Shown here: positions 8,142 through 63,994 of the stretch, one piece after another
Layout: each line of letters starts with the position of its first letter
How positions within the stretch are numbered: position 1 is the stretch's first letter
IMG/VR virus record: IMGVR_UViG_3300037851_000671
Span: 154,773-218,772 of that record
DNA from: a virus
Lineage: Duplodnaviria > Caudoviricetes
Strand: one strand, 5' to 3'
Length of the DNA stretch: 64,000 nt
The notes under the pieces: generated by a model
Database searches by the model: none
What the model saw: only the letters and a program-made list of their open reading frames with translations
What the model was told of the DNA's origin: nothing
Made by a program: the position numbers and the translations under genes

Positions 8142-9039
8142 AATGTCCTGTTATACCAAGCTGTTTGGCTATTGACTCATCATCTATCGGCGCCCACTTG
8201 TCACGGTCAGGCCATTTTTTCATGATCTGGGCCGCACGCCATATAGCGGTGTTTACCATATCACCAGTCTCTCTTTTGATTTGGCCGATGACAGGTGACT
8301 CTTCCATATTAGACAGGTCAACCTTGACTGGCTCCATCAAACCATCACACGTACCATTTACAATATCAGGCTCAAACATACCTGACATAAAGAACATGTG
8401 ACCGCTGTTTCCAATCATGATTTCATTATCTGAAATCAACCATGTGTGCTTTGTATTTGGGTATCTGAAATAGCACCAATGATACCTTGATGTTCTGTAT
8501 ATCTTGGCACCATACCCGGCCATCTCACGCACCCATACAAGGTCTTCTCCCCAATCCATGTATGTAAACAGGATTGACTCTTTGACCCTTCCGGTAACGG
8601 TAGGGCCGTGTATGAATGGAAGTTCTGCTTCTGCGTTCTCTGGCCATTTGGTAAGACAATACAACCTACCATCTGTCAAACGCATGAAAGAAGATGTCTT
8701 ACCAACAATATCACCCTTATGTATGTTAGAGGCAATTTCTTCTAGATACACTGGGCCGTAGTAGTCATCATCATCCCAGGTGGTCCATATGTCATCACCA
8801 AAACCGTTGTCTTTCAGATAGAGCAAGGCTTCGTTTTTAGCATATGACTGATGTGGCCTGGATGTTAGAATGACATCAGGTTCAATTCCTGCTTTTTTGC
8901 AGGCGCCTACAGCCTGTCCATTCTCAACTATCAGAAGTTTTTTGTTATGATAGGTTTGAGATTTGAACAGGTCTACGACCCATTGAAGTTGATGTGGTCT
9001 TGAAAAAGGTACCACACACCAAATTGTAGGATTTTTCAT
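8128..9039 (-). CDS. glycosyltransferase family 2-like
   Basis: 'VVPFSRP', 'LLIVEN', 'WDDDDYY' DxD, 'GEDL'. Confidence 0.65.
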   Translation of the reverse strand: MKNPTIWCVVPFSRPHQLQWVVDLFKSQTYHNKKLLIVENGQAVGACKKAGIEPDVILTSRPHQSYAKNEALLYLKDNGFGDDIWTTWDDDDYYGPVYLEEIASNIHKGDIVGKTSSFMRLTDGRLYCLTKWPENAEAELPFIHGPTVTGRVKESILFTYMDWGEDLVWVREMAGYGAKIYRTSRYHWCYFRYPNTKHTWLISDNEIMIGNSGHMFFMSGMFEPDIVNGTCDGLMEPVKVDLSNMEESPVIGQIKRETGDMVNTAIWRAAQIMKKWPDRDKWAPIDDESIAKQLGITGHYEIL

Positions 9040-9659
9040 GGAGGAGGTGGCTCGTATAGGAATACTTCTACTGTTGTAAAGAAATCTTGATGACCGTCAG
9101 CTTGTAATGCTCCGCGTTGGATGGCAAAGCAAATCCTATCAGCGTTGAAAACCTCTTCATCAACACCTGGCATAATTGGTTTAACGCTAGCGCCGGTCGC
9201 AGGATCAGCAGTTGGGTCCTTGGAATTTTGATACCAAAATACGTATTCGCTCATACCCCATCCAAAACAATTTGGAATAGAACATGAACAACTAGGCCAG
9301 TATACACAGTTTTGTTCTACAAGCCTGATACTTGGCGTCAAAAACCCAGGATCAACTGTGGTGGGTTCTCTACCCGAATGATCACCAGGAGCATCCTGAT
9401 CAAGGTTTCTTCCAGTAAAAACAGCTGTACAACGAATGGAACCGCTTGATGACAGTCCAGCTTGATTGTACCAAATTGTAGTAAAATCAATTATGAATGT
9501 GCCAGCTGATATCCTTGTGCTCTCGAACGGTTTCGAGAAATCAAGAATGGTGTTCAGGTGTATCCCAGAGGTAGGTCCGTTGCCAAAAAGAAAAGGCAAC
9601 GGAGGGTATTGAATCCTGTCCTCGTAGGACTTCTTTAACATTAGCTTGTGCTTGATCAT
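9036..9659 (-). CDS. hypothetical protein
   Basis: 207 aa ORF overlapping the GT2 start. Confidence 0.45.
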   Translation of the reverse strand: MIKHKLMLKKSYEDRIQYPPLPFLFGNGPTSGIHLNTILDFSKPFESTRISAGTFIIDFTTIWYNQAGLSSSGSIRCTAVFTGRNLDQDAPGDHSGREPTTVDPGFLTPSIRLVEQNCVYWPSCSCSIPNCFGWGMSEYVFWYQNSKDPTADPATGASVKPIMPGVDEEVFNADRICFAIQRGALQADGHQDFFTTVEVFLYEPPPP

Positions 9660-9701
9660 ATTCTCTCACATGAAGAATGCTTTCCTCCATATATCGGAAT
9701 A

Positions 9702-10454
9702 TCAACCAAGCAGCTTCTTTATCCAGTTCTTGGTGTCATCTATACTTGATACTCTGACGTTATCAAGCCCAATTTCAACAGAAGCATAATCGCACCCTCC
9801 TTCAAATAATGAATCACCAACATAGACAATATCATCTTTTGATATGCGAAGCTGCTGCATCAGCTCGTCAATACCGAACTTCCGGCCACAGGAACGCGGC
9901 GTGAAATCGATGGAGGTCAGGCCAGCTACCTTTACCTCAAAGGTTGGCAATTCCTGCGCAAGGCGAGGCAACACAGCAAGGCGCTTCTTGGCTTCGGGAT
10001 CCCACTTGGCCTTCTCTTCCAGCGGGGCCTTCTGTCCAAGTGCGGAGAAGGTTACCTGTGTTTCGCGGTCTTCTACCTGCTTACCCCAAAGCTTCTCTGG
10101 AGTGAGTTCGGGAACCGCTTTCAACACTGACTCAATAACACGGTGAGCTTTTTCTATCTCCGTCTTTGTTGGGTTGGAATGATATTTAGCTATCCAACCA
10201 TATTTGGACCAAGTTTGATACAGGGCGCCACCAGATGACGCAAGTATGTAAAGGTTATTCAATAGCTTCGTATCTTCGGTACCTATACTTCCAAGGAACT
10301 GTTTCTGGATTGTCTTCCAAGAAAGGCCAGATATAACCGCAACGTTATATTTACCTGTCTCAAGTATTTTCCTTAGCAGTGATGCCATCTCCTTATCGAG
10401 GGGCTGCTTGGACTCAGTAAGCGTACCATTCAAATCAAATACGATTGTTTTCAT
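9702..10454 (-). CDS. HAD-superfamily IIB hydrolase (phosphomannomutase-like)
   Basis: 'IVFDLNGTLTESKQ', 'VAVISG', 'AGLTSIDF', 'YVGDSLFEGGCDY'. Confidence 0.8.
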   Translation of the reverse strand: MKTIVFDLNGTLTESKQPLDKEMASLLRKILETGKYNVAVISGLSWKTIQKQFLGSIGTEDTKLLNNLYILASSGGALYQTWSKYGWIAKYHSNPTKTEIEKAHRVIESVLKAVPELTPEKLWGKQVEDRETQVTFSALGQKAPLEEKAKWDPEAKKRLAVLPRLAQELPTFEVKVAGLTSIDFTPRSCGRKFGIDELMQQLRISKDDIVYVGDSLFEGGCDYASVEIGLDNVRVSSIDDTKNWIKKLLG

Positions 10455-10620: not shown

Positions 10621-10641
10621 TTGGTAGCGTGTGTAGTAAAT

Positions 10642-10712
10642 GACAGCGAAAAAAAAGATCCGACCTTTTATTTGGTTTTGAATTCGAGATGAAAGATCGG
10701 TTGCGCGCTGTC
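10642..10712 (-). ncRNA. modular Y-RNA-like element E1 (minimal, no tRNA cargo)
   Basis: GACAGCG-CG..CCGATC-TTTCATC..GGTCGG..TTTTTTTT-CGCTGTC; ends complementary. Confidence 0.75.
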
Positions 10713-10715
10713 TAG

Positions 10716-10788
10716 TCGGGCGGGAGGGATTCGAACCCCCAACTATTCGCTTATGAGGCGACTTTTCTAACCGTTGAAATACCACCCG
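10716..10788 (-). tRNA. tRNA with CAT anticodon (elongator Met or Ile2)
   Basis: acceptor CGGGTGG/CCGCCCG, anticodon loop CTCATAA, T-loop TTCGAAT. Confidence 0.85.
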
Positions 10789-10792
10789 AAAC

Positions 10793-10909
10793 GGCAACGA
10801 AATTATGTAGACAATAGGCCGGCTTTTTACACCGTTTCCAAAGCCTCCGATGGATTCGAACCACCTAGCGCCAATTGATGATAGATGAAATGTCTACGAG
10901 CGCGTTGCC
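10793..10909 (-). ncRNA. modular Y-RNA-like element E2 (T-arm plus hairpin cargo)
   Basis: GGCAACG-CG..GTAGACA-TTTCATC..GGTGGTTCGAATCCATC..TGTCTAC..TTT-CGTTGCC. Confidence 0.75.
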
Positions 10910-10919
10910 AGAAATTAAA

Positions 10920-11054
10920 GAGTAACGAAAATTGCAGGACCACTGTTTTTTGTGCTACAATTACAACACATCCAGCCTTTCGACCGGAGCTGGGATTCGA
11001 ACCCAGACCTCTTAATTCTCAATTTAGGATGAATGATCCCACTGCGCGTTACTC
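10920..11054 (-). ncRNA. modular Y-RNA-like element E3 (circularly permuted tRNA cargo)
   Basis: GAGTAACG/CGTTACTC closing stem; T-arm CTGGG-TTCGAAT-CCCAG; acceptor TCCGGTC/GGCTGGA capped by GAAA; D-arm-like segment follows. Confidence 0.85.
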
Positions 11055-11413: not shown

Positions 11414-12122
11414 TCTTTTCTTAGAGAGACTTGCAGAGGGCTTGGATTCAACATCAAAGCTTACTCATGCTTTATTGTCTGAGATCAGAGATTCTGAAGC
11501 GGATTTTGCCTCCATCAAAACCGAGCTGTCAATACTAAGAGAGAACGTTAAAGGACTGTCAGAGATTGTCAGGGAAGGTAATGGAGCCACATCTATTCTC
11601 ACACGTATTGCGCTTATTGAGGCGCGAATACAGAACATTGAGAAGTGGATGGAAACCCACATCGATCTTCATCAGGAGGAAAACGCTGACGTGAGCAAGG
11701 CTCAGGAACAGCTGAAAGACCTCGATAAGAAGATCGCCGCGTTAACTTCAGTTGTCAATGAACTAAAATCTCACGCCGATGATATTGAGAAGAAGAGGCG
11801 CGAGAGTATAGACCGCGAGCTAGAGCTTCAGCACGAGGACAAGAAGAGCAAGATAGGGGTAGCTGCCGAAAGACAGCAGACCATTATCAAAGTCCTTGGT
11901 GCCCTGTTGTTGGCCGTGCTTGGCGCTGCTGGTGGCTATTTAGCGAATTCTTGTCATGGGACCGCCGGAGCGGCGCAGCCAAGGAGCGTTATTGTTGCCC
12001 CCTCGGCTGCCCCTATCCTAGCTCAACCGGCCGAGCCGATCAAGGAGAATCTGACTCCTCAACCGCCGTCACAGCCGCTTCTTCAGCCTTCGGTTTCTGC
12101 TGTTGCAAAACGAACTCGTTGA
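11388..12122 (+). CDS. coiled-coil protein with C-terminal transmembrane segment
   Basis: heptad-rich body; hydrophobic 'IIKVLGALLLAVLGAAGGYLA'. Confidence 0.55.
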   Translation: MATSKTTNDLFLERLAEGLDSTSKLTHALLSEIRDSEADFASIKTELSILRENVKGLSEIVREGNGATSILTRIALIEARIQNIEKWMETHIDLHQEENADVSKAQEQLKDLDKKIAALTSVVNELKSHADDIEKKRRESIDRELELQHEDKKSKIGVAAERQQTIIKVLGALLLAVLGAAGGYLANSCHGTAGAAQPRSVIVAPSAAPILAQPAEPIKENLTPQPPSQPLLQPSVSAVAKRTR

Positions 12123-13686
12123 GATCAAAATCCCTGATCGCCTTGACAATGTTGATACCAACATACTCAAGGTTCTTGAACAGTGCCGGTGTCATAGTCT
12201 GATACACGGTGACACTACGATCACCGAAATCAGCGCTGTGCCACTGGTAGTTGCTGGCATTGATAACCCAAAGCTCTGCCTCTGGGTTGACCTTCTTGCG
12301 ATACTCAGCCCAAGCCCTTGTCAAAGGAGTGCCAGCGTTCTGCTGCTCATCAGTGATCAAAACCATCAAATCAAGCTTACGCTTGCTGTTGGTTGCGTTC
12401 TCGATTGCCAGAGAAACCGTAGTTCCACCGGCAACCCTGAGAGCCAACAGATTCTTAACCTGATTCTTGCGATTCAGGCCAGTGATCCTTGGGCACATAC
12501 CGCTAGCGTAGCCGTAACGACCTCCGTGACCCTCCTCATACAAGGCGTTATCAAAAGTTGTGAACCAAAGGTTTGTAGCCTTTAGGAATGGCACTGCCAA
12601 CAGACCAGCAGTCTGAAGAGGCTCCCCGTTCATAGAACCAGAGATATCAACAGACACACCAACTCTCTTACCTTCAATGGTAGGCATTGGTACGTCCAAT
12701 GTTGCAACCATTGCATCGATAAGAATGTCCTTGACCTTTTCGTGCTTGGCGAAAATGTATGGCTTTGCAAAGTCAAGCGGAAGAGAGCGGCCATTCTGAA
12801 CCTCTCCCATCTTTAGCTTGAGCGCGGTCAGTCCATCCGTGGTGTCGAAGACATTGCGCTCTTCGAGAGAACGGATGTTGAGCAACAGAGCTGTCAAACC
12901 CATCTGAGTCATCGAGGCCATTGCAAGAGGACCCTTGAGTCCCGCAAAACCCTTAACAACATCCCATGGGATTTCATTTTCCAGCATCATATCAGCGATC
13001 TTCTTTGGATCACTGAGCTTCTTCATCATCTCAACAGCAACCTGCTTGGAACCGGTTGCCTCGGCCTTACGACCGTCCAAGACATACAGAATGACGTTTG
13101 CACGACCGTCTGTATAACGTGGGTGAACCAAACGAACGAGCTGATTCAAAGCAGTTGGATACTTGAGCGTGAAGTTTTCAAGCTTCTTATATCCCCACTT
13201 CTCCATTGCCGCGCGCACCCACTTCTGAGCACGCGAACCAAAACCACGACCCAACTGCTTGCTCTTGCACAGCTCCACGAACTGGATCAATTGACCAGGG
13301 TGGAATGTGCTAAGCAATGCAATAGCTGCCTGCTTATTTACAGGAGAATCCAAGAACTGCTCGTTTGCAGATCCGGCAATGGCAGCAAGAGCTACCTTAA
13401 CCATACCTTTCATATGGCTATTGCGGGCAAAGCAAGCCGCCTTGAGCAGGTACTCAGGGTCCAGCTTCGCGCGGTCAATGAGCAACGGCAGAGCTTCTTT
13501 TGCCGCGTCATCAACAGAGCGATAAAACTGGTTCTTAAGAATACCAGTCAAAAGAACACGAGCAACCGAATCTTCAGGAAGCTCATTCTTGGACAGATAT
13601 TCCGTCTTGGTCACAACCTTCTCAGGCTGACCCAACAGAGCCTTAACAAAAGAAGTGGACTTAACCTTGTTTGTTGTCTTATTCAT
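12040..13686 (-). CDS. rsr: Ro60/TROVE-domain RNA-binding protein with vWA domain
   Basis: 548 aa; TROVE-like helical N-part ('DPEYLLKAACFARN', 'LVRLVHP', 'IPWDVV', 'LTALLLNIRSL'), vWA MIDAS 'VDISGSM', 'GGT', 'LITDEQ'. Confidence 0.88.
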   Translation of the reverse strand: MNKTTNKVKSTSFVKALLGQPEKVVTKTEYLSKNELPEDSVARVLLTGILKNQFYRSVDDAAKEALPLLIDRAKLDPEYLLKAACFARNSHMKGMVKVALAAIAGSANEQFLDSPVNKQAAIALLSTFHPGQLIQFVELCKSKQLGRGFGSRAQKWVRAAMEKWGYKKLENFTLKYPTALNQLVRLVHPRYTDGRANVILYVLDGRKAEATGSKQVAVEMMKKLSDPKKIADMMLENEIPWDVVKGFAGLKGPLAMASMTQMGLTALLLNIRSLEERNVFDTTDGLTALKLKMGEVQNGRSLPLDFAKPYIFAKHEKVKDILIDAMVATLDVPMPTIEGKRVGVSVDISGSMNGEPLQTAGLLAVPFLKATNLWFTTFDNALYEEGHGGRYGYASGMCPRITGLNRKNQVKNLLALRVAGGTTVSLAIENATNSKRKLDLMVLITDEQQNAGTPLTRAWAEYRKKVNPEAELWVINASNYQWHSADFGDRSVTVYQTMTPALFKNLEYVGINIVKAIRDFDLNEFVLQQQKPKAEEAAVTAVEESDSP

Positions 13687-40899: not shown

Positions 40900-41331
40900 T
40901 CAAAACATCACTGTTAATGATGTCACAGGATTGCTTTTGTCATGGTTAACAGCTGAAATTTGTAACGTGCCATTTATGAAAGATTCGGCAAGCCACACAT
41001 TACCATCCTGATCGGTTAGGTTTTTGCCAACAATGTCATCGGTGGTTTCTGCTTTTAGAAACTGCCGCGTGCCAAAAGAACGGCTTTCAATTACCTTTAT
41101 CATTGGTGTATACTTCTCCCATTTAGGAACAATCTTTGGGCGATGTTCACAGTCCCAATTTTCACAAGGACCAGTAGTTACTCTTCCGAACTTTTCCCTT
41201 TGACCATCACAACAAACATCATAGGCGTAACACACATCACAGATCCAGCGTCCGTCCTCAGTCTTGGCGTGTGATAGATAGGAAGCTCCATCTTTACACG
41301 TATCACAAGGACAGAAATCGCAGAATCTCAT
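40900..41331 (-). CDS. Cys-rich hypothetical protein
   Basis: multiple CxxC. Confidence 0.45.
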   Translation of the reverse strand: MRFCDFCPCDTCKDGASYLSHAKTEDGRWICDVCYAYDVCCDGQREKFGRVTTGPCENWDCEHRPKIVPKWEKYTPMIKVIESRSFGTRQFLKAETTDDIVGKNLTDQDGNVWLAESFINGTLQISAVNHDKSNPVTSLTVMF

Positions 41332-41347
41332 GATGTCTTTTCTTGGG

Positions 41348-41421
41348 TGGGACCGGTGGGCTTCGATCCCACGACCTTGGAGTTAAAAGCTCCCTGCTCT
41401 GACCAACTGAGCTACGGACCC
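41348..41421 (-). tRNA. tRNA-Lys(TTT)
   Basis: loop CTTTTAA; T-loop ATCGAAG; one acceptor mismatch. Confidence 0.82.
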
Positions 41422-41509
41422 TAAATAGATCCGTAGTAAAAAAACCTCACGGATCTATCGTAAGTCAGGTTTCAAACGTTTGTAGAGAGCTATAATCATG
41501 TTAACCATT

Positions 41510-41585
41510 TGGTGCTGGAGACTGGCTTCGAACCAGCGACCGCACGCTTACAAGGCGTGTGCTCTACCAACTGAGCTACTCCAGC
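41510..41585 (-). tRNA. tRNA-Thr(TGT)
   Basis: loop CTTGTAA, encoded CCA. Confidence 0.92.
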
Positions 41586-55079: not shown

Positions 55080-55204
55080 AGCAACGAAAGAATCGAAGAC
55101 CTTGCTTGTCGGCTGCTCTACCACTGAGCTATGTGGCGGGAAACCACAGCAGGACTCGAACCTGCGACCCGCTGATTAGGATGAAGGATCCTCTACGCGT
55201 TGCT
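55080..55204 (-). ncRNA. modular Y-RNA-like element E4 (circularly permuted tRNA cargo)
   Basis: AGCAACG/CGTTGCT; GATC-CTTCATC; T-arm GCAGG-TTCGAGT-CCTGC; acceptor TGTGG/CCACA closed by a loop; D-arm GCTC-AGTGGTA-GAGC; GGTC. Confidence 0.9.
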
Positions 55205-55207
55205 TTG

Positions 55208-55279
55208 TCGGGGTGGCCAGGATCGAACTGGCGACTTCTAGTTCCCAAAACTAGCGGACTACCGCTGTCCTACACCCCG
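55208..55279 (-). tRNA. tRNA-Pro(TGG)
   Basis: loop TTTGGGA, C1-G72, A73. Confidence 0.9.
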
Positions 55280-55789
55280 TAAATCTAAATCATGTCCAGC
55301 ATGTAATGCTGCGTGACAGTTTTTGCAAAGAAGAACACATGTTTCAATTTCAGTTTTAACGTTTTCCCAACACCAACCTCTTGAATATTTGAAATTAGGA
55401 TCTTTTTTGGAAGGATCTAGATGATGTATATCTAAAGCTGCTTGATATTTATCATATCCACACGCTTTACATTTACCTCCAAGAAACTCCCTGGCTCTAT
55501 TTTTATTTTCTTGGCCCAGTTTAGTGGTATATTTGTTGTGACACCTACCACAAACTGTTGTTTTGTTACCATAGAATTTTTCTGGATTTGTTTCTCCACA
55601 ACTACATTTACGAGGGCGTGGTATTTTTGAGTCCTTGTTTTCTATTTTCCCATGTGGCCCACGTAACAAAACAAGTTTTTCTTTTTGTACCCAGTATCTA
55701 ATTGTTGTTTGTGAACATTCTAGTTCTTTTGCAAGTTCATTTGTACTATATCCATTTTCAACTAGTTTTTTTAGTTTCTCGATATCCAT
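55259..55789 (-). mobile_element. HNH homing endonuclease with N-terminal HTH
   Basis: 'GGKCKACGY..ALDIHH..CVLLCKNCHAALH'; stop codon lies in the tRNA-Pro D-loop. Confidence 0.85.
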
Positions 55790-55808
55790 AGTTCAATATG
55801 GTGTTGGA

Positions 55809-55932
55809 AACGAACGAAAGTTTTGAAGACCAACGCCCTCCGAAAGTCATGTTTCCTTGGGCCTAAATGATGCCCGCCAATTTAGGACATCGCACTGTCA
55901 TATTGATGAAAGATCTTCGTGACGCGTTCGTT
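55809..55932 (-). ncRNA. modular Y-RNA-like element E5 (non-tRNA hairpin cargo)
   Basis: AACGAACG/CGTTCGTT; GAAGATC-TTTCATC..GGTCTTC; internal CCTAAAT/ATTTAGG stem. Confidence 0.8.
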
Positions 55933-55944
55933 ACATGTATCTGT

Positions 55945-56448
55945 TTATATCACGTGATATGCCGTGAAAGAAGAAAATCTTACGAAAGCTCCGAACGTAT
56001 TTGCAATGGTTGTAATAACCCCAGTGTACTCCTGGTCCATACATCCAATCAAGTCATTGTCACCAAGATAGTCAAGTACCACAATCGAAGTACATTCACA
56101 CATATGACTAAGCTTGTTTTCCTTGAACTTCTTGTTGCAAACCAAGCGCCTGTGATGATGTGGTACTTGCTTTATTTTGTTTTGGGTTCGCCCAATAAGA
56201 GTACCAAATATTGTGCTGAAAAACTTGTCCATAGTATATTCTGGATTGTATTGTTCTGTGGGAAACATCTTAAGAGTAACCCTAGAATTTTCTGTTGGAC
56301 ACTTATCAAACCACACAGGAGATTCTGCATTCAATACGCAAATGTCATTAGAGAAGTCACCAACATCGTAGATTGGTGTAATGGCGGCTGGATCATGAAC
56401 CAGTAACCACTTAGCAGCTTCTCCATACATTTCGTGTTTGTATTTCAT
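55945..56448 (-). CDS. hypothetical protein
   Basis: 167 aa ORF between two elements. Confidence 0.45.
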   Translation of the reverse strand: MKYKHEMYGEAAKWLLVHDPAAITPIYDVGDFSNDICVLNAESPVWFDKCPTENSRVTLKMFPTEQYNPEYTMDKFFSTIFGTLIGRTQNKIKQVPHHHRRLVCNKKFKENKLSHMCECTSIVVLDYLGDNDLIGCMDQEYTGVITTIANTFGAFVRFSSFTAYHVI

Positions 56449-56470
56449 GCGGATACTTATATCAAGAAAT

Positions 56471-56622
56471 AAGGAACGAAAAAGCGAAAGACCAGTTTTT
56501 TCGCGCTCTACCAGACTGAGCTATATGCTGATGTTGGGCTTTATGAGCCTTGTCAGCATAGTTGGATTCGGACCAACGACCTCGATCTCCTAAAGATGAA
56601 TGATCTTTCTAACGCGTTCCTT
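56471..56622 (-). ncRNA. modular Y-RNA-like element E6 (circularly permuted tRNA cargo)
   Basis: AAGGAACG/CGTTCCTT; GATC-ATTCATC; T-arm GTTGG-TCCGAAT-CCAAC; acceptor TATGCTGA/TCAGCATA with inserted hairpin; D-arm GCTC-AGTCTGGTA-GAGC. Confidence 0.9.
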
Positions 56623-56624
56623 TG

Positions 56625-56699
56625 TCAGGGTGAGAGGAATCGAACCTCCAGCCTCCTGGCTCCAGACCAGGCCGTCTACCAAATTGACATTACACCCTG
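56625..56699 (-). tRNA. tRNA-Pro(TGG) with atypical loop (C33, A37)
   Basis: acceptor CAGGGTG/CACCCTG, A73, loop TCTGGAG. Confidence 0.72.
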
Positions 56700-56703
56700 A
56701 AAT

Positions 56704-56771
56704 ACTAACGAAAATAGCGATGACCTTGGTTTTCAATGTTCGGTTGATGAAGGATCATCTTGCGCGTTAGT
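56704..56771 (-). ncRNA. modular Y-RNA-like element E7 (minimal)
   Basis: ACTAACG-CG..GATGATC-CTTCATC-20 nt-GGTCATC..TTTT-CGTTAGT. Confidence 0.8.
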
Positions 56772-56845
56772 TGGTTGTGGTACCCCGATTCGAACAGGGG
56801 AAAAGACCTTCAAAGGGTCCGGTTATACCGCTTAACTATACCACA
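56772..56845 (-). tRNA. tRNA-Gln(TTG)
   Basis: loop CTTTGAA, encoded CCA. Confidence 0.85.
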
Positions 56846-56859
56846 GAATATATCATTTG

Positions 56860-56932
56860 TTAGGGCAGATGGAGTTGAACCATCAGTATTTGCGGTCAGA
56901 GCGCAACATTTTGCCAATTAAATTATGCCCTA
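56860..56932 (-). tRNA. tRNA-Gln(CTG)
   Basis: loop CTCTGAC, acceptor TAGGGCA/TGCCCTA. Confidence 0.85.
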
Positions 56933-57063
56933 GTATAATGGAACGTTTACTGGTGAATATTACTCTTTCCAGATCGTGTCCCTAACGTTTTTGGCAGCGT
57001 TTTGTTGATTGATCTTCAGGTTACAGCGGAAACCTGAATTATCTAGGCAAGTCCTAGCACCAG

Positions 57064-57136
57064 TCGGATATCTGAGAGTTGAACTCAGCGCAAAAATCTT
57101 ATCAGGATTTCCAGGGCAACCGTCCCGTCCTACCCG
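57064..57136 (-). tRNA. tRNA-Ile(GAT), atypical D-arm
   Basis: loop CTGATAA, T-arm CTGAG/CTCAG. Confidence 0.65.
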
Positions 57137-57197
57137 CAATCTAGTAATATCTTGATATATCTCCGAACATAGGTCTTTCAGTTATCGGAGGTATAGT

Positions 57198-57881
57198 ATG
57201 AAGTTCGAAAAGAGACAGAAAGCTAGAGAATTAAGAATTGGTGGAAAATCAGTACCTAACATAGCAAAAGAGCTTGGTGTGGCTAAAAGCAGTGTGAGTA
57301 TGTGGGTACGTGACATTCAGCTAACAGAGGAACAAAGAAAAAACTTTGGCACCAATCAGGGTAAACATTTGTTGGCATTTTCTCAAGAGAGAAAAATTTC
57401 TAGTCTGAAGTTACGACAGAAATATCAAGAAGATGGACGTAAAAGAGCTGCTGAACATGATTTACTACATTGTATGGGCTGCATGCTATTTTGGGCAGAA
57501 GGTACAAAAGATAAAAACACAATAACGTTCACAAACTCAGATGTACACATGTTGCGTATTTTTTTGAGGTTTCTACGAGAGTGTTTTCATGTGACAAACA
57601 ACCAAATCACGGTAAGGATTAATTGCTTCATAAAACATGAAGCAGATTGGGAGTCGGTCAAGCTATACTGGAAAAATGAGCTTGGTATAGATGAATCAAT
57701 GTTTAGAAAACCGACGACTAAAGTTACTGACGTTGTTGAAAATTATGGTGTTTGTGCTTTGACTGTATGCAATACTGAACTAGCCCAGCAAATATATGGA
57801 TCTATTCAGGAGTATGGCGGTTTCAATAACGGAATGTGTTTGGAAAACAAAAGAACAAGACGCTCTAACCAGATGAGCTAA
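57198..57881 (+). mobile_element. HTH + single-motif LAGLIDADG-like endonuclease
   Basis: 'KSVPNIAKELGVAKSSVSMW' HTH; 'MLFWAEGTK..ITFTNSD..LRIFLRFL'. Confidence 0.7.
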
Positions 57882-57887
57882 GGTCCG
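57856..57887 (-). pseudogene. orphan tRNA 5' half (acceptor strand + D-arm)
   Basis: CGGACCT-TA-GCTC-ATCTGGTTA-GAGC-G-TCTTG; no matching 3' half found. Confidence 0.6.
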
Positions 57888-57894
57888 TTTACTA

Positions 57895-58107
57895 TCACTC
57901 TTGCTGTTGTTGCGCTTTCTTAATCAGCTGCACCTCTTTATATGACAAGGACAATGGAATTTCAGACTTGCAACCATCACATATACAATATGCAATAGTT
58001 TCCAATCTCACATCATCATAGTCAAGTTTTACTATTGAAGCGCAACTCGAACATGTAACAAGTTTTCCAAGTTTGCTCTGCTTTGAGCCTTCTTTTACAA
58101 TCTCCAT
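57895..58107 (-). CDS. small Zn-ribbon protein
   Basis: CSSC..CDGC. Confidence 0.5.
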   Translation of the reverse strand: MEIVKEGSKQSKLGKLVTCSSCASIVKLDYDDVRLETIAYCICDGCKSEIPLSLSYKEVQLIKKAQQQQE

Positions 58108-58139
58108 ACCAACAGATATACCGAGAGAATCGTAGAGTT

Positions 58140-58289
58140 AGATAACGAAAAGGGCTCAGACGAAGTTTTTTCCAGCGTCCAGCCGCCGCATGTTGCCCGG
58201 TTTTACCCAGGTGGTGCGGCGCAGGGAAATCGAATCCCTGTCGTTTGAATTATCGGTTCAAGATGAATCGTCCAAAAAGCGCGTTATCT
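58140..58289 (-). ncRNA. modular Y-RNA-like element E8 (permuted acceptor with encoded ACCA)
   Basis: AGATAACG/CGTTATCT; GGACG-ATTCATC..CGTCT; T-arm AGGGA-TTCGATT-TCCCT; GCGCCGC-ACCA-insert-GCGGCG. Confidence 0.82.
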
Positions 58290-58327
58290 GGCGATGCTGT
58301 AAACACCCAAGCTTACAGCGTCATTTG

Positions 58328-60263: not shown

Positions 60264-60269
60264 AAAATC

Positions 60270-60360
60270 GTGATGACATTTGCCAGCGCTGGTCATTTGT
60301 CATCACTAAACCTGGTTGTGGATTCGAACCACTATGCGCGCCTGCCTGCCTGGCTACAGA
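60270..60360 (-). other. tRNA-like fragment (D-arm + T-arm, no anticodon arm) followed by a long hairpin
   Basis: TAGCC-AGGCAGGCA-GGC, GTGG-TTCGAAT-CCAC, then GTGATGACA/TGTCATCAC. Confidence 0.45.
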
Positions 60361-60364
60361 TCTG

Positions 60365-60446: not shown

Positions 60447-60636
60447 AAAAACCGGGGCTGCTCTATCCATTGAGCTAATCAACTTGTATTCAAACATTTC
60501 TTCGAACGGCACCTTCGCAAAGTGATATCCCTTTGCACTCCAGGCTTTAGCTTTCGCGTAACGTTGAGAGGAAATTGCCTTTGCAGGACTGTCATACATG
60601 TTGATATTGGATTCGAACCAATAACCAACCCCTTAG
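60447..60636 (-). ncRNA. circularly permuted tRNA-like RNA P1 with ~125-nt insert at the acceptor end
   Basis: GGGGT-TGGTT-ATTGG-TTCGAAT-CCAAT-ATCAAC-[insert]-GTTGAT-TA-GCTC..GAGC-A-GCCCC. Confidence 0.75.
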
Positions 60637-60680
60637 GGTGACCAGTTGGTACCGCCCCAACTACGACAGAGCCACAATCT
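60637..60680 (-). tRNA. 3' half of split tRNA-His(GTG)
   Basis: AGATTGTGGC-TCTG, T-arm GTTGG-GGCGGTA-CCAAC, acceptor strand TGGTCAC, C73. Confidence 0.75.
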
Positions 60681-61155
60681 GCCCGCTCACTTCTTGCGTT
60701 TGGTCACATTTAAACTGACGTGCTAGTTTATGTACATGGAACCTTGTGATCCCATAAACCTTACTGATTGATACTGCACTTTCTCCATTTTTGTACCTTT
60801 CAACAATTTCTGTTTTCACATTTGGTTTTAGTGTTTTTCTTACAGGGTTGTAACTATTGATAGCTAGATTTATTTGCTCTTTTCTTCTTAGTCCCATGTG
60901 AGGTTGAAGCTCTTTCATAAGAACCACAGCCCTACCTCCTTTAAGTGCTGTGGCATATGGTGTTTTGTGATGTGCCTTTTGCTTTTTACACTTGCGATAA
61001 GTAGAGCCAAAAAGCATAGCAGCTTTTGCAACAACATCTTCATCAGTCATCATCAATGTAATAGCTGGGCAATTTGGCCTGCTTGGTGGTGATTTTAGAA
61101 AAGAACCCTCACCTTCTAAAAGCCCTGCAAGCCAAATCAAATCGTATTCTTTCAT
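60661..61155 (-). mobile_element. LAGLIDADG homing endonuclease inserted in tRNA-His
   Basis: 'IWLAGLLEGEGSF', C-terminal HTH; last codons read through the tRNA-His anticodon arm. Confidence 0.88.
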
Positions 61156-61195
61156 GAATAATCATATATCAAGCTCAACGACTTATTACAACTGG

Positions 61196-61233
61196 GCCAC
61201 AATCTAGTGCCTTAACCATTAGGCTACGATCAC
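61196..61233 (-). tRNA. 5' half of split tRNA-His(GTG)
   Basis: GTGATCG-TA-GCCT-AATGGTTA-AGGC-A-CTAGA-TTGTGGC; acceptor strand pairs 7/7 (with GU) with 60638-60644. Confidence 0.8.
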
Positions 61234-61417: not shown

Positions 61418-61459
61418 ATATTTGTAATTTTGCACATATGCATATTTGCAGATTTACAT

Positions 61460-62401
61460 ATGAACCTAGAGAAGTATATCGTGTTACACGGCAGCCCTAT
61501 CAAGCTGCCCAAGCCTCATGCAGATTTTGTTGACTTTTACTACAACAACATGATGCATGATAAGAAGTTCGGAGTTATCCATATGCGAAAGGCCAGACAG
61601 GTTGGTTTTACCAGTTTGAGTCATGGGCTTTCGTTAGCTTTGGCCATGGAAGAGGTTGTTAGGGTTTATCACCTTCATCCTACTATGGCTATGGCAGCAC
61701 AGTCAGCTCAAAAAATAAACGATATGATTCTTGATGCCCCAAGAGGAATGACCAAGAAGCGCAATGGCCTTCTAAAATCTGTCATTGAAGAAAAGTTGAA
61801 ATGGGGTCCTCAATGCGATACCAAAACCAGAAAAGAGTTTGAGAATGGAAGCTCAATCCTAACAGAGTCAACTGGGAACAATGCCTGCCGTTTGAGGGGA
61901 GGAAGCTGTGACATTTCTTTTTTCCATGAGTCACAGCGCATGGAGCCAGAAGCTATGAGGAACGCAAGTCATCTTTCATCCCATTCACAATTCGGTGTGC
62001 TTGGTCTTGGTGTTCAGACTTATATGTTCACACCACAAGAGGAAGATGATTATTCCGATCATATGTGGAAAGATTCAGACCAGAGGAGGTTCCACTACAG
62101 GTGCGAGAACTGCTCCTGTATGTTCCCAATCATGCAAAGCAATTTCCGTGAGATTTGGTTGTATGGATTTACCATCCGTTGTCCAGAATGTCACAGAGAG
62201 CAGGACAAGAGAAACGCCATGAAACGCGGAGAGTGGATAGCTACAGCAACCGAGTCACATGTTGCTGGATTCCATATGGACCAGTCTACCATGGAGTTTT
62301 TTAGCCGTGAGTCAATTGATGCGTGCTATAATGACAGAACCATGACGGAAAGGAATATCGCTAATGAAGTATGGGGAGAGTCTTTTCCGAAAGAACAGTA
62401 A
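61460..62401 (+). CDS. terminase large subunit (GpA-like) ATPase-domain protein, nuclease domain absent
   Basis: 'MRKARQVGFTS', 'RLRGGSCDISFFHE', Zn ribbon 'CENC..CPEC', 'VAGFHM'; start at MNLEKY. Confidence 0.65.
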   Translation: MNLEKYIVLHGSPIKLPKPHADFVDFYYNNMMHDKKFGVIHMRKARQVGFTSLSHGLSLALAMEEVVRVYHLHPTMAMAAQSAQKINDMILDAPRGMTKKRNGLLKSVIEEKLKWGPQCDTKTRKEFENGSSILTESTGNNACRLRGGSCDISFFHESQRMEPEAMRNASHLSSHSQFGVLGLGVQTYMFTPQEEDDYSDHMWKDSDQRRFHYRCENCSCMFPIMQSNFREIWLYGFTIRCPECHREQDKRNAMKRGEWIATATESHVAGFHMDQSTMEFFSRESIDACYNDRTMTERNIANEVWGESFPKEQ

Positions 62402-62402
62402 T

Positions 62403-62650
62403 AAAACGGGGACTGCTCTACCAATTGAGCTAATCCAACTTTGTTCGATAACTAACGCCTCTTCAAACTCGCACCGTGTGGAAATCGCGTTTTTCCGTGA
62501 CAGGCTTTAGCAACAAGCCATGCAAGACATCCCCTCGCGAGGGAGCTAACACGGACTAACAGTTGCGTAAGAGTTGATAGGAGACAGTCTTATGAAGCAC
62601 TGTTACTTATCGAGTCGAATGCCGGACTCGAACCGGCAACCTTCCCCTCA
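62403..62650 (-). ncRNA. circularly permuted tRNA-like RNA P2 with ~175-nt structured insert at the acceptor end
   Basis: GGGGA-AGGTT-GCCGG-TTCGAGT-CCGGC-ATTCGAC-[insert]-GTTGGAT-TA-GCTC-AATTGGTA-GAGC-AG-TCCCC. Confidence 0.8.
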
Positions 62651-62651
62651 G

Positions 62652-62724
62652 TCCTGATAGCAGAAGTCGAATCTGCAACATCCAGCTTATGATGCTAGCG
62701 CTCTACCAATTGAGCTATATCAGG
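62652..62724 (-). tRNA. tRNA with CAT anticodon (elongator Met or Ile2)
   Basis: acceptor CCTGATA/TATCAGG, loop ATCATAA. Confidence 0.82.
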
Positions 62725-63175: not shown

Positions 63176-63271
63176 AGGATAACGAAAATTGGTTGACCTT
63201 TTGCCTTACGGCACATTACGTTTCGGTTTTTATTACTGATGTAGATGAAAGATCAAACCTGCGCGTTATCT
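63176..63271 (-). ncRNA. modular Y-RNA-like element E9 (short non-tRNA cargo)
   Basis: AAGATAACG/CGTTATCCT; GGTTTGATC-TTTCATC..GGTCAACC. Confidence 0.8.
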
Positions 63272-63350
63272 TGGAAGCGGGTCTTGGATTTGAACCAAGG
63301 AAACTAGGCTTATGAGACCCAGGAGTTAGGCCAGACTACTCTAACCCGCG
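63272..63350 (-). tRNA. tRNA-fMet(CAT)-like
   Basis: C1-U72 mismatch, loop CTCATAA, encoded CCA. Confidence 0.8.
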
Positions 63351-63359
63351 ATAGTGAAT

Positions 63360-63517
63360 AAGCAACGAAAAGATTTGAGACCCTGCCTTTCGGCTCTGTT
63401 GTGTATACCAATTCCACCATACCGGCGTTTCCACGTTTCCACCGATAGCGGGACTCGAACCCGCAAACGTATTAGGTGACAGTTTTACAAGATGAAAGAT
63501 CTCGGATCGCGTTGCTT
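63360..63517 (-). ncRNA. modular Y-RNA-like element E10 (permuted tRNA-Leu-like cargo)
   Basis: AAGCAACG/CGTTGCTT; GAGATC-TTTCATC; long variable region, T-arm GCGGG-TTCGAGT-CCCGC, Leu-type D-arm GGTGGAATTGGTATACAC. Confidence 0.88.
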
Positions 63518-63519
63518 TG

Positions 63520-63607
63520 TGCCGCCGACAGGATTCGAACCTGCATGAACGTTTTGTGTTCCTCACGCTCTCAACGTGATATGTATACCAAATTCCATCA
63601 CAGCGGC
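63520..63607 (-). tRNA. tRNA-Leu(GAG)
   Basis: loop TTGAGAG, long variable arm. Confidence 0.9.
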
Positions 63608-63609
63608 AA

Positions 63610-63791
63610 AGGATAACGAAAGATTGTCAGACGGGTTTTTCAACACCAGTCTGCCCATTGTTTTCAGAAGAATTGAGACTTGTTTTTACCGGCACAACCA
63701 GCATCTCAATTTGGCGGGCAGCTAAGGAATCGAACCTTAATGTCTATACGTTGGAAATATTAGATGAACCATCTAACTATGCGCGTTATCT
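63610..63791 (-). ncRNA. modular Y-RNA-like element E11 (permuted acceptor with encoded GCCA)
   Basis: AGATAACG/CGTTATCC; AGATGG-TTCATC..CCGTCT; T-arm TAAGG-TTCGATT-CCTTA; GCTGCCC-GCCA-insert-GGGCAG. Confidence 0.82.
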
Positions 63792-63869
63792 TGGTTGCGG
63801 AGAATTGGATTTGAACCAATGACCTTCGGGTTATGGGCCCGACGAGCTACCTGACTGCTCTACCCCGCA
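63792..63869 (-). tRNA. tRNA-fMet(CAT) with C33
   Basis: anticodon stem TCGGG/CCCGA, loop CCCATAA, encoded CCA. Confidence 0.85.
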
Positions 63870-63875
63870 ATAATT

Positions 63876-63994
63876 AGCAACGAAAGGAGCGAGACCCTAC
63901 ATGCCCACATGGGCGATTCCCCAGTGAAAAGAACCCGAAGGTTCGGTGGGGAATTAAGTTTCGAGCTTAGATGAAAGATCCCTAACGCGTTGCT
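63876..63994 (-). ncRNA. modular Y-RNA-like element E12 (multi-hairpin non-tRNA cargo)
   Basis: AGCAACG/CGTTGCT; GGGATC-TTTCATC..GGTCTC; internal TTCCCCA/TGGGGAA and GAACC-TTCG-GGTTC stems. Confidence 0.82.

What the first reader, a model, noticed from the sequence alone, without database searches (positions are those of the whole stretch)
62403..62650. Permuted tRNA-like RNA P2 carrying a ~175-nt highly structured domain
Seen: it begins 1-2 nt after tRNA(CAT). A perfect T-arm and D-arm appear in permuted order with a 7-bp acceptor ATTCGAC/GTTGGAT and anticodon stem GGGGA/TCCCC. The insert is closed by TCGATAA.TAAC/GTTA.TTATCGA and contains nested helices: ACAGT/ACTGT, CTCTT/AAGAG, CGCA/TGCG, CCGTG/CACGG (two alternative partners), TCCCT/AGGGGA and GGCTT/AAGCC. 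Inference: a complex folded domain (aptamer, ribozyme or protein scaffold) mounted on a tRNA elbow. Together with P1 this forms a second ncRNA class that no standard annotation explains.
Basis: partly seen in the sequence, partly recalled or inferred. Interest (0 to 1): 0.8.

Follow-up and report, generated by a model that had tools for sequence, protein, structure and literature searches.

The report
Permuted tRNA-mimic RNA of giant phage
Inside the tRNA gene cluster of a giant freshwater phage lies a small RNA that folds like a tRNA with its parts in rotated order and carries a conserved three-armed domain on its acceptor arm. It most resembles the tRNA-mimicking Y RNAs that partner with Ro60 proteins, and it is not a working tRNA.

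Summary
On the minus strand, 62651->62403 reads: CUGA tail, anticodon-stem 3' strand, variable loop, T arm, 7-bp acceptor strand, 175-nt insert, acceptor 5' strand, U8/A9, D arm, anticodon-stem 5' strand. It starts right after the discriminator of tRNA-Met(CAU).

It belongs to a small family. I found four copies in three related giant phages (P1 and P2 here, one each in IMG/VR contigs G001 and G004). Near-identical pieces of P2 also occur in four pond, freshwater and sediment metagenomes.

On the four-sequence alignment, 35 pairs are 97% paired and 12 show compensatory changes.

The conserved part of the insert is only about 45 nt. It is a tight three-way junction whose long arm ends in a bulged helix, UCAAC / GUU(C/U)GA-AG. 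That helix looks like the CGAA-type Ro60-binding helix of Y RNAs. The other ~105 nt of P2's insert is a lineage-specific cap.

Rfam gives nothing above threshold; the YrlA model hits the tRNA-like module of the G004 copy weakly.

Best reading: a circularly permuted Y-RNA-like tRNA mimic, cut from the tRNA operon by tRNA-processing enzymes. It is not a ribozyme and not a permuted pre-tRNA. Ro60 binding is inferred, not shown.

This scan has noted similar permuted tRNA mimics in other giant phages.

The parts
62652..62724 (-). tRNA-Met(CAU) with no encoded CCA. Its 3' processing would create the 5' end of P2.
   Evidence: ARAGORN; Rfam tRNA 65.6 bits; sequence.
62648..62651 (-). 5' tail CUGA. 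The family has CUA, CUAA or CUGA directly after the discriminator of the upstream tRNA.
62643..62647 (-). Anticodon-stem 3' strand GGGGA. It pairs with 62409-62413.
   Evidence: The pair at alignment columns 10/246 is G-C in three copies and A-U in G004.
62621..62637 (-). T arm GCCGG-UUCGAGU-CCGGC, preceded by variable loop AGGUU (62638-62642).
   Evidence: orphan T arm; Rfam tRNA 3' part, truncated; three compensatory pairs in the T stem.
62614..62620 (-). Acceptor 3' strand AUUCGAC. It pairs with 62433-62439.
62602..62613 (-). Closing helix of the insert, 5' strand UCGAUAAGUAAC. It pairs with 62445-62456. Its last pairs, A-U and C-G, are kept wherever both columns carry a letter (A-U in 3 copies, a gap in G004; C-G in all 4).
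   Evidence: alignment columns 53-54 with 200-201.
62586..62601 (-). Side hairpin Ha (AGU(G)C-UUCAUAA-GACU). The stem position is conserved; the loop varies (6, 6, 4 and 7 nt).
   Evidence: columns 56-61 with 66-69; two compensatory pairs.
62573..62585 (-). Hb 5' strand GUCUC, internal loop CUA, Hc 5' strand UCAAC.
   Evidence: Both helices are in P2's MFE fold.
62469..62572 (-). Lineage-specific cap of Hc, 104 nt. It corresponds to 54 nt in P1 and 12 nt in G004, and is replaced from 62546 downward in pond-metagenome variants.
62457..62468 (-). Hc 3' strand GUU[U]GA with a bulged U, then A, then Hb 3' strand GAGGC. This is the family motif (G/A)UU(C/U)GAAG.
   Evidence: Motif compared with the literature.
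62440..62444 (-). Unpaired ACAAA directly 5' of acceptor position 1, a leader-like bulge found only in P2.
62409..62439 (-). tRNA 5' half: acceptor GUUGGAU, U8 A9, D arm GCUC-AAUUGGUA-GAGC, A26, anticodon-stem 5' strand GUCCC.
62403..62408 (-). 3' tail CGUUUU. In a pond-metagenome variant the tail is GUGUUUUUCAU and runs straight into tRNA-Leu(UAG).
   Evidence: joint 61419 to 62409.
60447..60636 (-). P1, the paralogue of P2 in this window. It is flush between the split tRNA-His and tRNA-Leu(CAG).

Best explanation
P2 is a non-coding RNA of a small phage family of circularly permuted, Y-RNA-like tRNA mimics.

How it is made. It is transcribed with the minus-strand tRNA operon. Its ends would be made by the enzymes that mature its neighbours. 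The 5' end would come from the cut behind the discriminator of the CCA-less tRNA-Met(CAU). Ancestrally the 3' end would come from RNase P cutting at the next tRNA.

How it folds. It folds into an L-shaped tRNA core: T arm, D arm, acceptor helix, and an anticodon stem that holds the two termini. There is no anticodon loop. The acceptor helix runs on into a helical rod. That rod passes through a tight three-way junction (side hairpin Ha), a 5-bp helix Hb and a 3x1 internal loop. It ends in helix Hc, 5'-UCAAC-3' / 5'-GUU(C/U)GA-3', which has one bulged pyrimidine and is followed by AG. In P2 a non-conserved ~105-nt domain caps Hc.

What it likely does. By sequence, bulge position and orientation, Hc looks like the Ro60-binding bulged helix of Y RNAs (GGUC[C]GA; CGAA core). 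The RNA then reads as a Y RNA whose natural ends are closed and whose tRNA-like module is opened in the anticodon loop. It most likely acts as such RNAs are thought to act: one module docks a Ro60-type protein, here the phage's own (window 12040-13686), and the tRNA-like module engages tRNA-binding proteins.

Shown: the family, the fold, the flush boundaries, and the conserved core versus the variable cap.
Inferred: the processing enzymes, Ro60 binding and the tethering function.
For: Fold and family:
- Four copies in three phages whose portal proteins are 71-73% identical.
- 35 pairs are 97.1% paired, 12 have compensatory changes, and 0 of 500 shuffles reach this.
- RNAalifold finds the same helices.
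- Hb column 71/199 is A-U, G-C and U-A in the three lineages.

Selection:
- P1 is 92.6% identical between G000 and G001, while the flanking tRNAs are 56-70% identical.
- An ORF through the P1 insert is broken by a stop codon in G001, so the region is not coding.

Boundaries:
- All copies start 3-4 nt after the discriminator of a CCA-less tRNA.
- P1, P1_G001 and P_G004 end 5-7 nt before the next tRNA or tRNA-like gene.
- A pond-metagenome contig shows P2 directly followed by tRNA-Leu once a 989-bp insertion is absent.

Y-RNA link:
- The YrlA model RF02553 aligns positions 23-86 (closing stem, T arm, AS stem, D arm) to P_G004, with the 64-nt cargo as an insertion in the AS loop. The score is 18.3 bits, E 0.1, below threshold.
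- YrlA has the same arm order. M. smegmatis YrlA, with a 7-bp acceptor, is cut by RNase P and receives CCA (PMC4201824).
- The Ro60-contact motif is GGUCCGA / GNCGAAN0-1G. The bulged 9th nucleotide is critical (PMC11277228). A CGAA motif was used to find phage Y-like RNAs that bind a phage Ro60 (PMC12135203).
- The phage encodes a protein with a Ro60 vWA domain; G001 has a 71% identical one.
Against: - No binding or expression data exist. No RNA run holds the sequence.
- The motif is short. P2 itself has U, not C, in the bulge (UGAA instead of CGAA).
- G004 (91% complete) has a P element but no detectable Ro60-like gene.
- The phage already has 12 other Y-like elements with a different end-stem, so P may serve another partner.
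- The consensus fold costs P1 6-10 kcal/mol relative to its MFE.
- There are only three independent lineages, and I derived the structure from the same sequences. The slid-partner control is therefore biased in my favour.
- The rod length between elbow and Hc varies (7 to ~19 bp before the junction). This argues against a fixed geometry.
Confidence: 0.5

Rival explanations
1. A Ro60-independent tRNA mimic or natural 'tRNA scaffold'. The permuted tRNA core only ensures precise excision from the tRNA operon and stability. The conserved three-way junction binds some other, unknown protein or RNA. The likeness of Hc to the Ro60 site is chance.
For: - G004 has a P element but no detectable Ro60-like gene.
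- P2 has UGAA, not CGAA.
- The phage's other Y-like elements use a different end-stem; the Hb/Hc descriptor hits only the P copies.
- This scan noted a permuted tRNA-like RNA between tRNAs in another giant phage with no Ro gene nearby (unchecked).
Against: - The match covers sequence, bulge position and strand orientation relative to the tRNA-like module.
- It lies in the most conserved part of the cargo.
- The genome encodes a Ro60-type protein.
Confidence: 0.3
2. A decaying remnant. Two tandem tRNA copies lost their outer halves, or a recombination scar was left by the many homing-endonuclease genes in the array. The RNA has no function of its own.
For: - The array is heavily rearranged: a split tRNA-His with a LAGLIDADG gene and a 989-bp insertion next to P2.
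- The acceptor helix is degenerate in G001 and G004.
- Fold z-scores are unremarkable.
Against: - Compensatory changes keep helices between the two halves and inside the insert.
- P1 is far better conserved than its neighbours.
- Boundaries are flush in three phages.
- P2 pieces at 95-99% identity occur in four other metagenome studies.
Confidence: 0.1
3. A true circularly permuted tRNA gene, as in Cyanidioschyzon merolae or Thermofilum. The ends are ligated to form an anticodon loop, and the insert is then removed by RNase P and RNase Z, giving a working tRNA.
For: - The 3' half lies before the 5' half.
- P2 has a canonical 7-bp acceptor with G1-C72, an unpaired leader and a position-73 base.
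- The ends made by RNase Z and RNase P would be 5'-P and 3'-OH, which an Rnl-type ligase can join.
Against: - The two tails add up to 8, 10, 11 or more nt and share no 7-nt loop with U33 and a purine at 37.
- There is no bulge-helix-bulge motif.
- The leader side is a tRNA, not a pairing partner.
- Acceptor helices in G001 and G004 have mismatches or a bulge.
- The lineage is bacterial-phage (portal nearest to Bacillus phage G).
- No RtcB or Rnl2-type ligase is found in G000, G001 or the 91%-complete G004. The T4 Rnl1 family search rang nowhere, its controls included, so it says nothing either way.
Confidence: 0.04
4. A two-piece (permuted) tmRNA-like gene, or another RNA with a coding or tag function in the insert.
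For: The gene order (T arm and acceptor 3' strand, intervening segment, acceptor 5' strand) is that of permuted tmRNA genes. P2's insert holds a 7-codon AUG...UAA frame.
Against: - ARAGORN finds no tmRNA and Rfam finds none.
- A full D arm and anticodon stem are present, unlike tmRNA.
- The mini-frame is in the non-conserved cap and is absent from P1 and G004.
- There is no encoded CCA.
Confidence: 0.01

Closest known systems
YrlA (Rfam RF02553), the tRNA-like Y RNA of bacteria and actinobacteriophages (Chen et al. 2014, PMC4201824)
   Same: - Same module order: closing stem, variable region, T arm, acceptor-like stem, U8/A9, D arm.
- Near-identical D-arm consensus (UAGCUCA..GGUAGAGC).
- An intact T loop.
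- Occurs in phages that encode Ro60.
- M. smegmatis YrlA has a 7-bp acceptor like P2 and is cut there by RNase P.
   Different: - P RNAs have no long terminal Ro-binding stem and no 5' GNCGAAN0-1G motif at the termini. Their ends sit on a 5-bp anticodon stem and are set by the flanking tRNAs.
- The acceptor-like stem is not capped by a small loop. It carries a three-way junction and the candidate Ro60 helix.
- The Rfam model scores far below threshold (18.3 against 69 bits for G004; nothing for P1 or P2).
Animal Y RNAs and Deinococcus radiodurans Yrn1 (Ro60-binding bulged helix GGUC[C]GA / UUGACC). The partner strand is from my own knowledge. The 5' strand and the bulge are from PMC4201824 and PMC11277228.
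   Same: - Hc has 4 (or 3) pairs, one bulged pyrimidine, then 2 pairs: 5'-(C)GUU[C]GA-3' with 5'-UCAAC(G)-3'. hY1 reads GUCCGAAG.
- The 3' end of the motif strand points towards the tRNA-like module. As in Yrn1, the helix hangs on the acceptor side.
   Different: - The helix is internal and capped, not formed by the RNA's 5' and 3' ends, so it is a circular permutation.
- GGUC is GUU or AUU.
- P2 has U in the bulge.
- Binding is untested.
Circularly permuted tRNA genes of Cyanidioschyzon merolae and Thermofilum pendens (from my own knowledge; the papers found mention them)
   Same: The 3' half is encoded upstream of the 5' half, and an intervening sequence lies between the acceptor strands.
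   Different: There is no BHB motif and no anticodon loop that can be rebuilt. The 'intervening sequence' is large and partly conserved. The setting is bacterial-phage.
Permuted tRNA-like RNAs noted by this scan in other giant phages (notes e1-3433005 and e1-5362084; AI notes, unchecked)
   Same: A rotated tRNA core between tRNA genes, closed by an anticodon-like stem. In one case, tRNA look-alikes carry a Y-RNA-like two-helix arm as an insert.
   Different: These are different genomes. I could not compare the sequences. The acceptor cap there is a tetraloop, or the arm sits elsewhere.

Membership tests
YrlA / bacterial Y RNA (RF02553) | tRNA-like module in the order T arm, acceptor-like stem-loop, D arm, with conserved tRNA tertiary nucleotides | tested here: met
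   The YrlA CM aligns positions 23-86 to P_G004. U8, A9, A14, GG in the D loop, G46 and UUCGA in the T loop are present in all four copies.
YrlA / bacterial Y RNA (RF02553) | Terminal stem formed by the 5' and 3' ends, carrying the GNCGAAN0-1G Ro60 motif near the 5' end | tested here: not met
   The termini pair only in a 5-bp anticodon stem, with 3-4-nt and 5-7-nt tails. A CGAA-type motif exists but lies inside, on the acceptor side.
YrlA / bacterial Y RNA (RF02553) | Scores at or above the Rfam gathering threshold (69 bits) | tested here: not met
   No YrlA hit for P2 or P1 at E<=10. P_G004 scores 18.3 bits.
YrlA / bacterial Y RNA (RF02553) | Encoded within a few kb of, and on the same strand as, a Ro60 (TROVE) gene | tested here: not met
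   The Ro60-vWA protein gene is at 12040-13686(-), about 49 kb from P2. G001 has the gene. G004 has a P element but no detectable homologue.
YrlA / bacterial Y RNA (RF02553) | Bound by Ro60/Rsr | not testable with these tools
   Needs EMSA or co-immunoprecipitation.
Circularly permuted tRNA gene (C. merolae / Thermofilum type) | 3' half upstream of the 5' half, with complementary acceptor strands | tested here: met
Circularly permuted tRNA gene (C. merolae / Thermofilum type) | Leader and trailer form a BHB motif, and joining restores a 7-nt anticodon loop | tested here: not met
   The leader is the upstream tRNA itself. The tails sum to 8-11 nt and have no common U33/R37 register.
Circularly permuted tRNA gene (C. 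merolae / Thermofilum type) | A splicing endonuclease or RNA ligase is available | tested here: inconclusive
   No RtcB or Rnl2-type ligase in G000, G001 or G004. The Rnl1 family search rang nowhere, controls included, so it is uninformative. The host is unknown.
Canonical tRNA (RF00005) | Contiguous cloverleaf with an anticodon loop | tested here: not met
   ARAGORN makes no call. Rfam tRNA matches only the truncated 3' part, 13.1 bits.
Two-piece (permuted) tmRNA | Tag reading frame with a stop; tRNA-like domain without an anticodon stem; encoded CCA | tested here: not met
   ARAGORN finds no tmRNA. There is no conserved frame in the insert and no CCA after position 73.
Small self-cleaving ribozymes (hammerhead, twister, HDV-like, hatchet, pistol) and group I introns | Match to the family covariance model | tested here: not met
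   No such match at E<=10 on P2, P1 or P_G004.

The most novel reading that the evidence does not exclude
P RNAs are a new wiring of the Ro60/Y-RNA system. The Y RNA is circularly permuted and embedded in a tRNA operon, so that RNase Z and RNase P release it in step with the phage tRNAs. [quoted passage not shown] That would give a two-piece, possibly chargeable tRNA mimic still tethered to a Ro60-binding arm. Such an RNA could bring Ro60 to the translation or tRNA-processing machinery of the host.
Probability: 0.12. Interest if true: 0.85.

Novelty: new variant of a known kind. Interest (0 to 1): 0.62.

Why it matters
The function of the tRNA-like module of bacterial Y RNAs is still unknown. 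This family keeps that module under clear selection but wires it differently. The termini lie in the anticodon stem and are set by neighbouring tRNAs, and a candidate Ro60 helix hangs on the acceptor arm.

If the Ro60 link holds, it shows that the two modules of a Y RNA can be joined in more than one topology. It would also show that giant phages produce such RNAs through the tRNA-processing pathway. That gives a simple handle for experiments, because the ends, the cleavage sites and the binding motif are all predicted.

The finding also flags sequences that tRNA finders and Rfam miss inside phage tRNA arrays.

Tried and rejected
- **Rfam.** I searched at gathering scores and at E<=10 on 4 kb and on each element alone. 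There is no family for the insert: only a truncated tRNA 3' part, a weak YrlA hit on G004, and a sequence-only chance hit of HTH-XRE RNA on P1.
- **Close relatives in INPHARED phages.** blastn found none.
- **Exact and degenerate DNA patterns and neighbouring proteins in IMG/VR.** These returned only G001 and G004/G002. One pattern had a wrongly set D-loop gap and returned 50 ordinary tRNAs.
- **Metagenome scan.** It gave 3 hits, all chance matches inside coding sequence.
- **Genome scan of 185,579 species.** It gave 67 hits. None has the TCAA motif or the fold.
- **Signature search in five more distant relatives, two of them complete 447-kb genomes.** Nothing found.
- **Homologues of the neighbouring 121-aa ORF.** None.
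- **Coding reading of the insert.** The 64-aa ORF through P1 has a stop in G001.
- **TTCAT in P2's Ha loop as a link to the E-type elements.** Rejected: it lies in a variable loop and is absent from P1 and G004.
- **A 'go-back' joint in a pond contig that looked like a normal-order version of P2.** It is an ordinary tRNA with a different acceptor that shares 21-nt stretches of the D and T arms.
- **Promoter and terminator scan.** It found nothing in or next to P2.
- **Ligation model.** See the rival explanations.

Full report
**Context.** The window is the last 64 kb of a 218,772-bp IMG/VR viral contig. CheckV rates it about 51% complete, and the source is a freshwater metagenome. The portal protein is closest to Bacillus phage G (32% identity) and to cluster-C mycobacteriophages. 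IMG/VR holds relatives with 58-75% portal identity, and the complete ones are about 447 kb. All 31 tRNA genes that ARAGORN calls lie in this window on the minus strand. The phage encodes a protein with a Ro60 vWA domain at 12040-13686(-).

**The observation.** Read on the minus strand, tRNA-Met(CAU) (62724-62652) is followed by these parts:
- CUGA tail
- GGGGA
- AGGUU
- T arm GCCGG-UUCGAGU-CCGGC
- acceptor strand AUUCGAC
- a 174-nt insert
- acceptor strand GUUGGAU
- UA
- D arm GCUC-AAUUGGUA-GAGC
- A, then GUCCC(C), then GUUUU

The minimum-free-energy fold returns exactly this permuted cloverleaf and the closing helix of the insert. Its energy, however, is not better than that of shuffled sequence (z -1.29). 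ARAGORN does not call it, and Rfam sees only a truncated tRNA 3' part. No ORF of 50 aa or more covers it.

**A family.**
It lies flush between the discriminator of a split tRNA-His and position +1 of tRNA-Leu(CAG).
- nhmmer with the P1 insert found an orthologue in IMG/VR contig G001. There it sits between a tRNA-Met(CAU) and a tRNA-Leu(CAA).
- A scan for T arms that begin 13-14 nt after a called tRNA found a fourth copy in G004 (and in G002, a fragment of the same phage). It lies between tRNA-Phe and an odd tRNA-like gene, and its insert is only about 55 nt.
- Every copy starts with CUA, CUAA or CUGA directly behind the discriminator of a tRNA that lacks an encoded CCA. Three copies end 5-7 nt before the next tRNA.
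- For P2, a Logan contig from a pond metagenome joins 61419 to 62409. The 989-bp segment carrying the plus-strand ORF 61457-62398 is therefore an insertion, and P2 was originally followed by tRNA-Leu(UAG).
- Pieces of P2 at 95-99% identity, including the junction with tRNA-Met, occur in runs from four other studies. In three of them the sequence departs from ours at 62546, inside the insert.

**Selection.** P1 is 92.6% identical between G000 and G001, with four changes in the 124-nt insert. The flanking tRNAs are 56-70% identical and the portal proteins 73%. The only ORF through the P1 insert has a stop codon in G001. The conservation is therefore at the RNA or DNA level.

**Structure.**
- On the four-sequence alignment A3 I specified the anticodon stem, T stem, five acceptor pairs and D stem. 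In the insert I added two closing pairs, a side hairpin Ha, a 5-bp helix Hb and a helix Hc with a one-nucleotide bulge.
- Of 139 cells, 97.1% pair. Twelve of 35 pairs have changes on both sides. None of 500 shuffles reaches these values, and sliding the partners gives 30-47% paired.
- RNAalifold, given only the alignment, predicts the same helices except the acceptor, which MAFFT misaligned.
- Hb and Hc are in the MFE fold of P2 and of P_G004. For P1 the consensus costs 6-10 kcal/mol more than the MFE.
- Caveats: there are only three independent lineages, and I derived the structure from these same sequences.

**Anatomy of the insert.**
- The closing helix ends in A-U and C-G pairs that are kept wherever both columns carry a letter (A-U in three copies, C-G in all four).
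- One A leads into Ha, one nucleotide leads into Hb, and Hb's 3' strand runs without a linker into the closing helix. Hb probably stacks on the acceptor rod, although no 3D model was made.
- After a 3-4 x 1 internal loop comes Hc: 5'-UCAAC(G)-3' paired with 5'-(C)GUU[C]GA-3', followed by A and G.
- The tip of Hc is 12 nt in G004, 54 nt in P1 and 104 nt in P2 (62572-62469). This is the part replaced in the pond variants.
- The '175-nt highly structured domain' is therefore a ~45-nt conserved core plus a lineage-specific expansion. A descriptor for Hb/Hc finds only the P copies among the arrays I fetched.

**What it resembles.**
- The order T arm, acceptor-like stem, D arm is that of the tRNA-like module of YrlA Y RNAs. 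These are widespread next to Ro60 genes in bacteria and phages. M. smegmatis YrlA has a 7-bp acceptor and is cut by RNase P and extended with CCA (PMC4201824).
- The Rfam YrlA model aligns its positions 23-86 to P_G004, with the cargo as a 64-nt insertion in the AS loop. The score is 18.3 bits, far below the 69-bit threshold.
- The conserved motif (G/A)UU(C/U)GAAG in Hc contains the CGAA core of the Ro60-contact motif. That motif is GGUCCGA in animals and GNCGAAN0-1G in YrlA. Its bulged nucleotide is critical for Ro60 binding (PMC11277228). A CGAA motif was used to find two Y-like RNAs that bind the Ro60 of Thermus phage phiLo (PMC12135203).
- From my own knowledge of animal Y RNAs, the helix GGUC[C]GA/UUGACC has the same layout as Hc: pairs, one bulged C, then two pairs.
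- The 3' end of the motif strand points towards the tRNA-like module, and the helix hangs on the acceptor side. This is what one gets by closing the ends of a Yrn1-type Y RNA and opening its anticodon loop.
- All of this is a resemblance, not a test. P2 has U in the bulge, and G004 (91% complete) has no detectable Ro60-like gene while G001 has one.

**What it is not.**
- A permuted pre-tRNA matured by ligation is unlikely. The two tails sum to 8-11 nt with no common loop register. There is no BHB motif. The acceptor helices of G001 and G004 are imperfect. G000, G001 and G004 have no RtcB or Rnl2-type ligase, whereas the more distant G011, which lacks P elements, has both. The Rnl1 family search rang nowhere, its controls included, so it is uninformative.
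- No ribozyme, intron, tmRNA or riboswitch model matches.
- A mere relic is hard to square with the compensatory changes and the conservation.

**Distribution.** Pattern scans of IMG/VR, of JGI metagenomes and of one genome per prokaryote species found no further members. So far the family is confined to this subclade of giant freshwater phages. This scan's notebook lists similar permuted tRNA mimics in other giant phages. Those are unchecked AI notes that I could not compare by sequence.

**Verdict.** P2 is a real member of a conserved family of permuted tRNA-like RNAs that is neither annotated nor in Rfam. I rate the fold and the family at about 0.8. I rate the Y-RNA-like, Ro60-linked reading at about 0.4-0.5. 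A working permuted tRNA I rate below 0.05.

Noticed in passing
window 61420-62408 (ORF 61457-62398, + strand): A 989-bp segment between P2 and tRNA-Leu(UAG) is absent from a pond-metagenome variant. It encodes a 314-aa paralogue of the ATPase domain of the phage's large terminase (31-36% identity on both sides of the terminase's intein; Pfam GpA_ATPase). It has no nuclease domain and runs opposite to the tRNA array.
   Followed up: partly
window 60637-61233 (-): tRNA-His is split by a 164-aa LAGLIDADG-type ORF that runs into the 3' half. Only ~40 nt separate the 5' half from the start codon, so there is no room for a group I core. The T loop of the 3' half is non-canonical (GGCGGUA).
   Followed up: partly
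window 63176-63991, 55080-58290, 10640-11050 (-): About 12 inter-tRNA elements share the ends NNAACGCG..GAUCWUUCAUCY and GGUCU..UUUCGUURY. Many contain a permuted tRNA-like module. tRNAs followed by these elements encode CCA, whereas tRNAs followed by P elements do not.
   Followed up: partly
window 60264-60363 (-) and L083:12436-12536 (-): The 100-nt spacer between tRNA-Leu and tRNA-Glu(CUC) is 80.6% identical between the two phages. It folds into a T-arm-like hairpin (GUGG-UUCGAAU-CCAC) inside a closing stem, plus a long hairpin GUGAUGAC..GUCAUCAC. It may be another small tRNA-derived RNA.
   Followed up: partly
genome G000:C1:4876-7833 (L001:77-3034): The large terminase gene carries an intein with a LAGLIDADG endonuclease domain.
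   Followed up: no
L084:4916-4989 (+), G004: The gene after the G004 P element is called tRNA-Phe(GAA) by ARAGORN but has a non-canonical T loop (AUCGUAA) and an 8-nt anticodon loop. It is probably another tRNA-like RNA.
   Followed up: no
G011 (IMGVR_UViG_3300036715_004471), 8546-9850, 41171-41536, 76774-77316 and 335796-336278: A complete 447-kb relative without P elements encodes RtcB and three Rnl2-family RNA ligase domains. The P-bearing relatives G001 and G004 have none.
   Followed up: no
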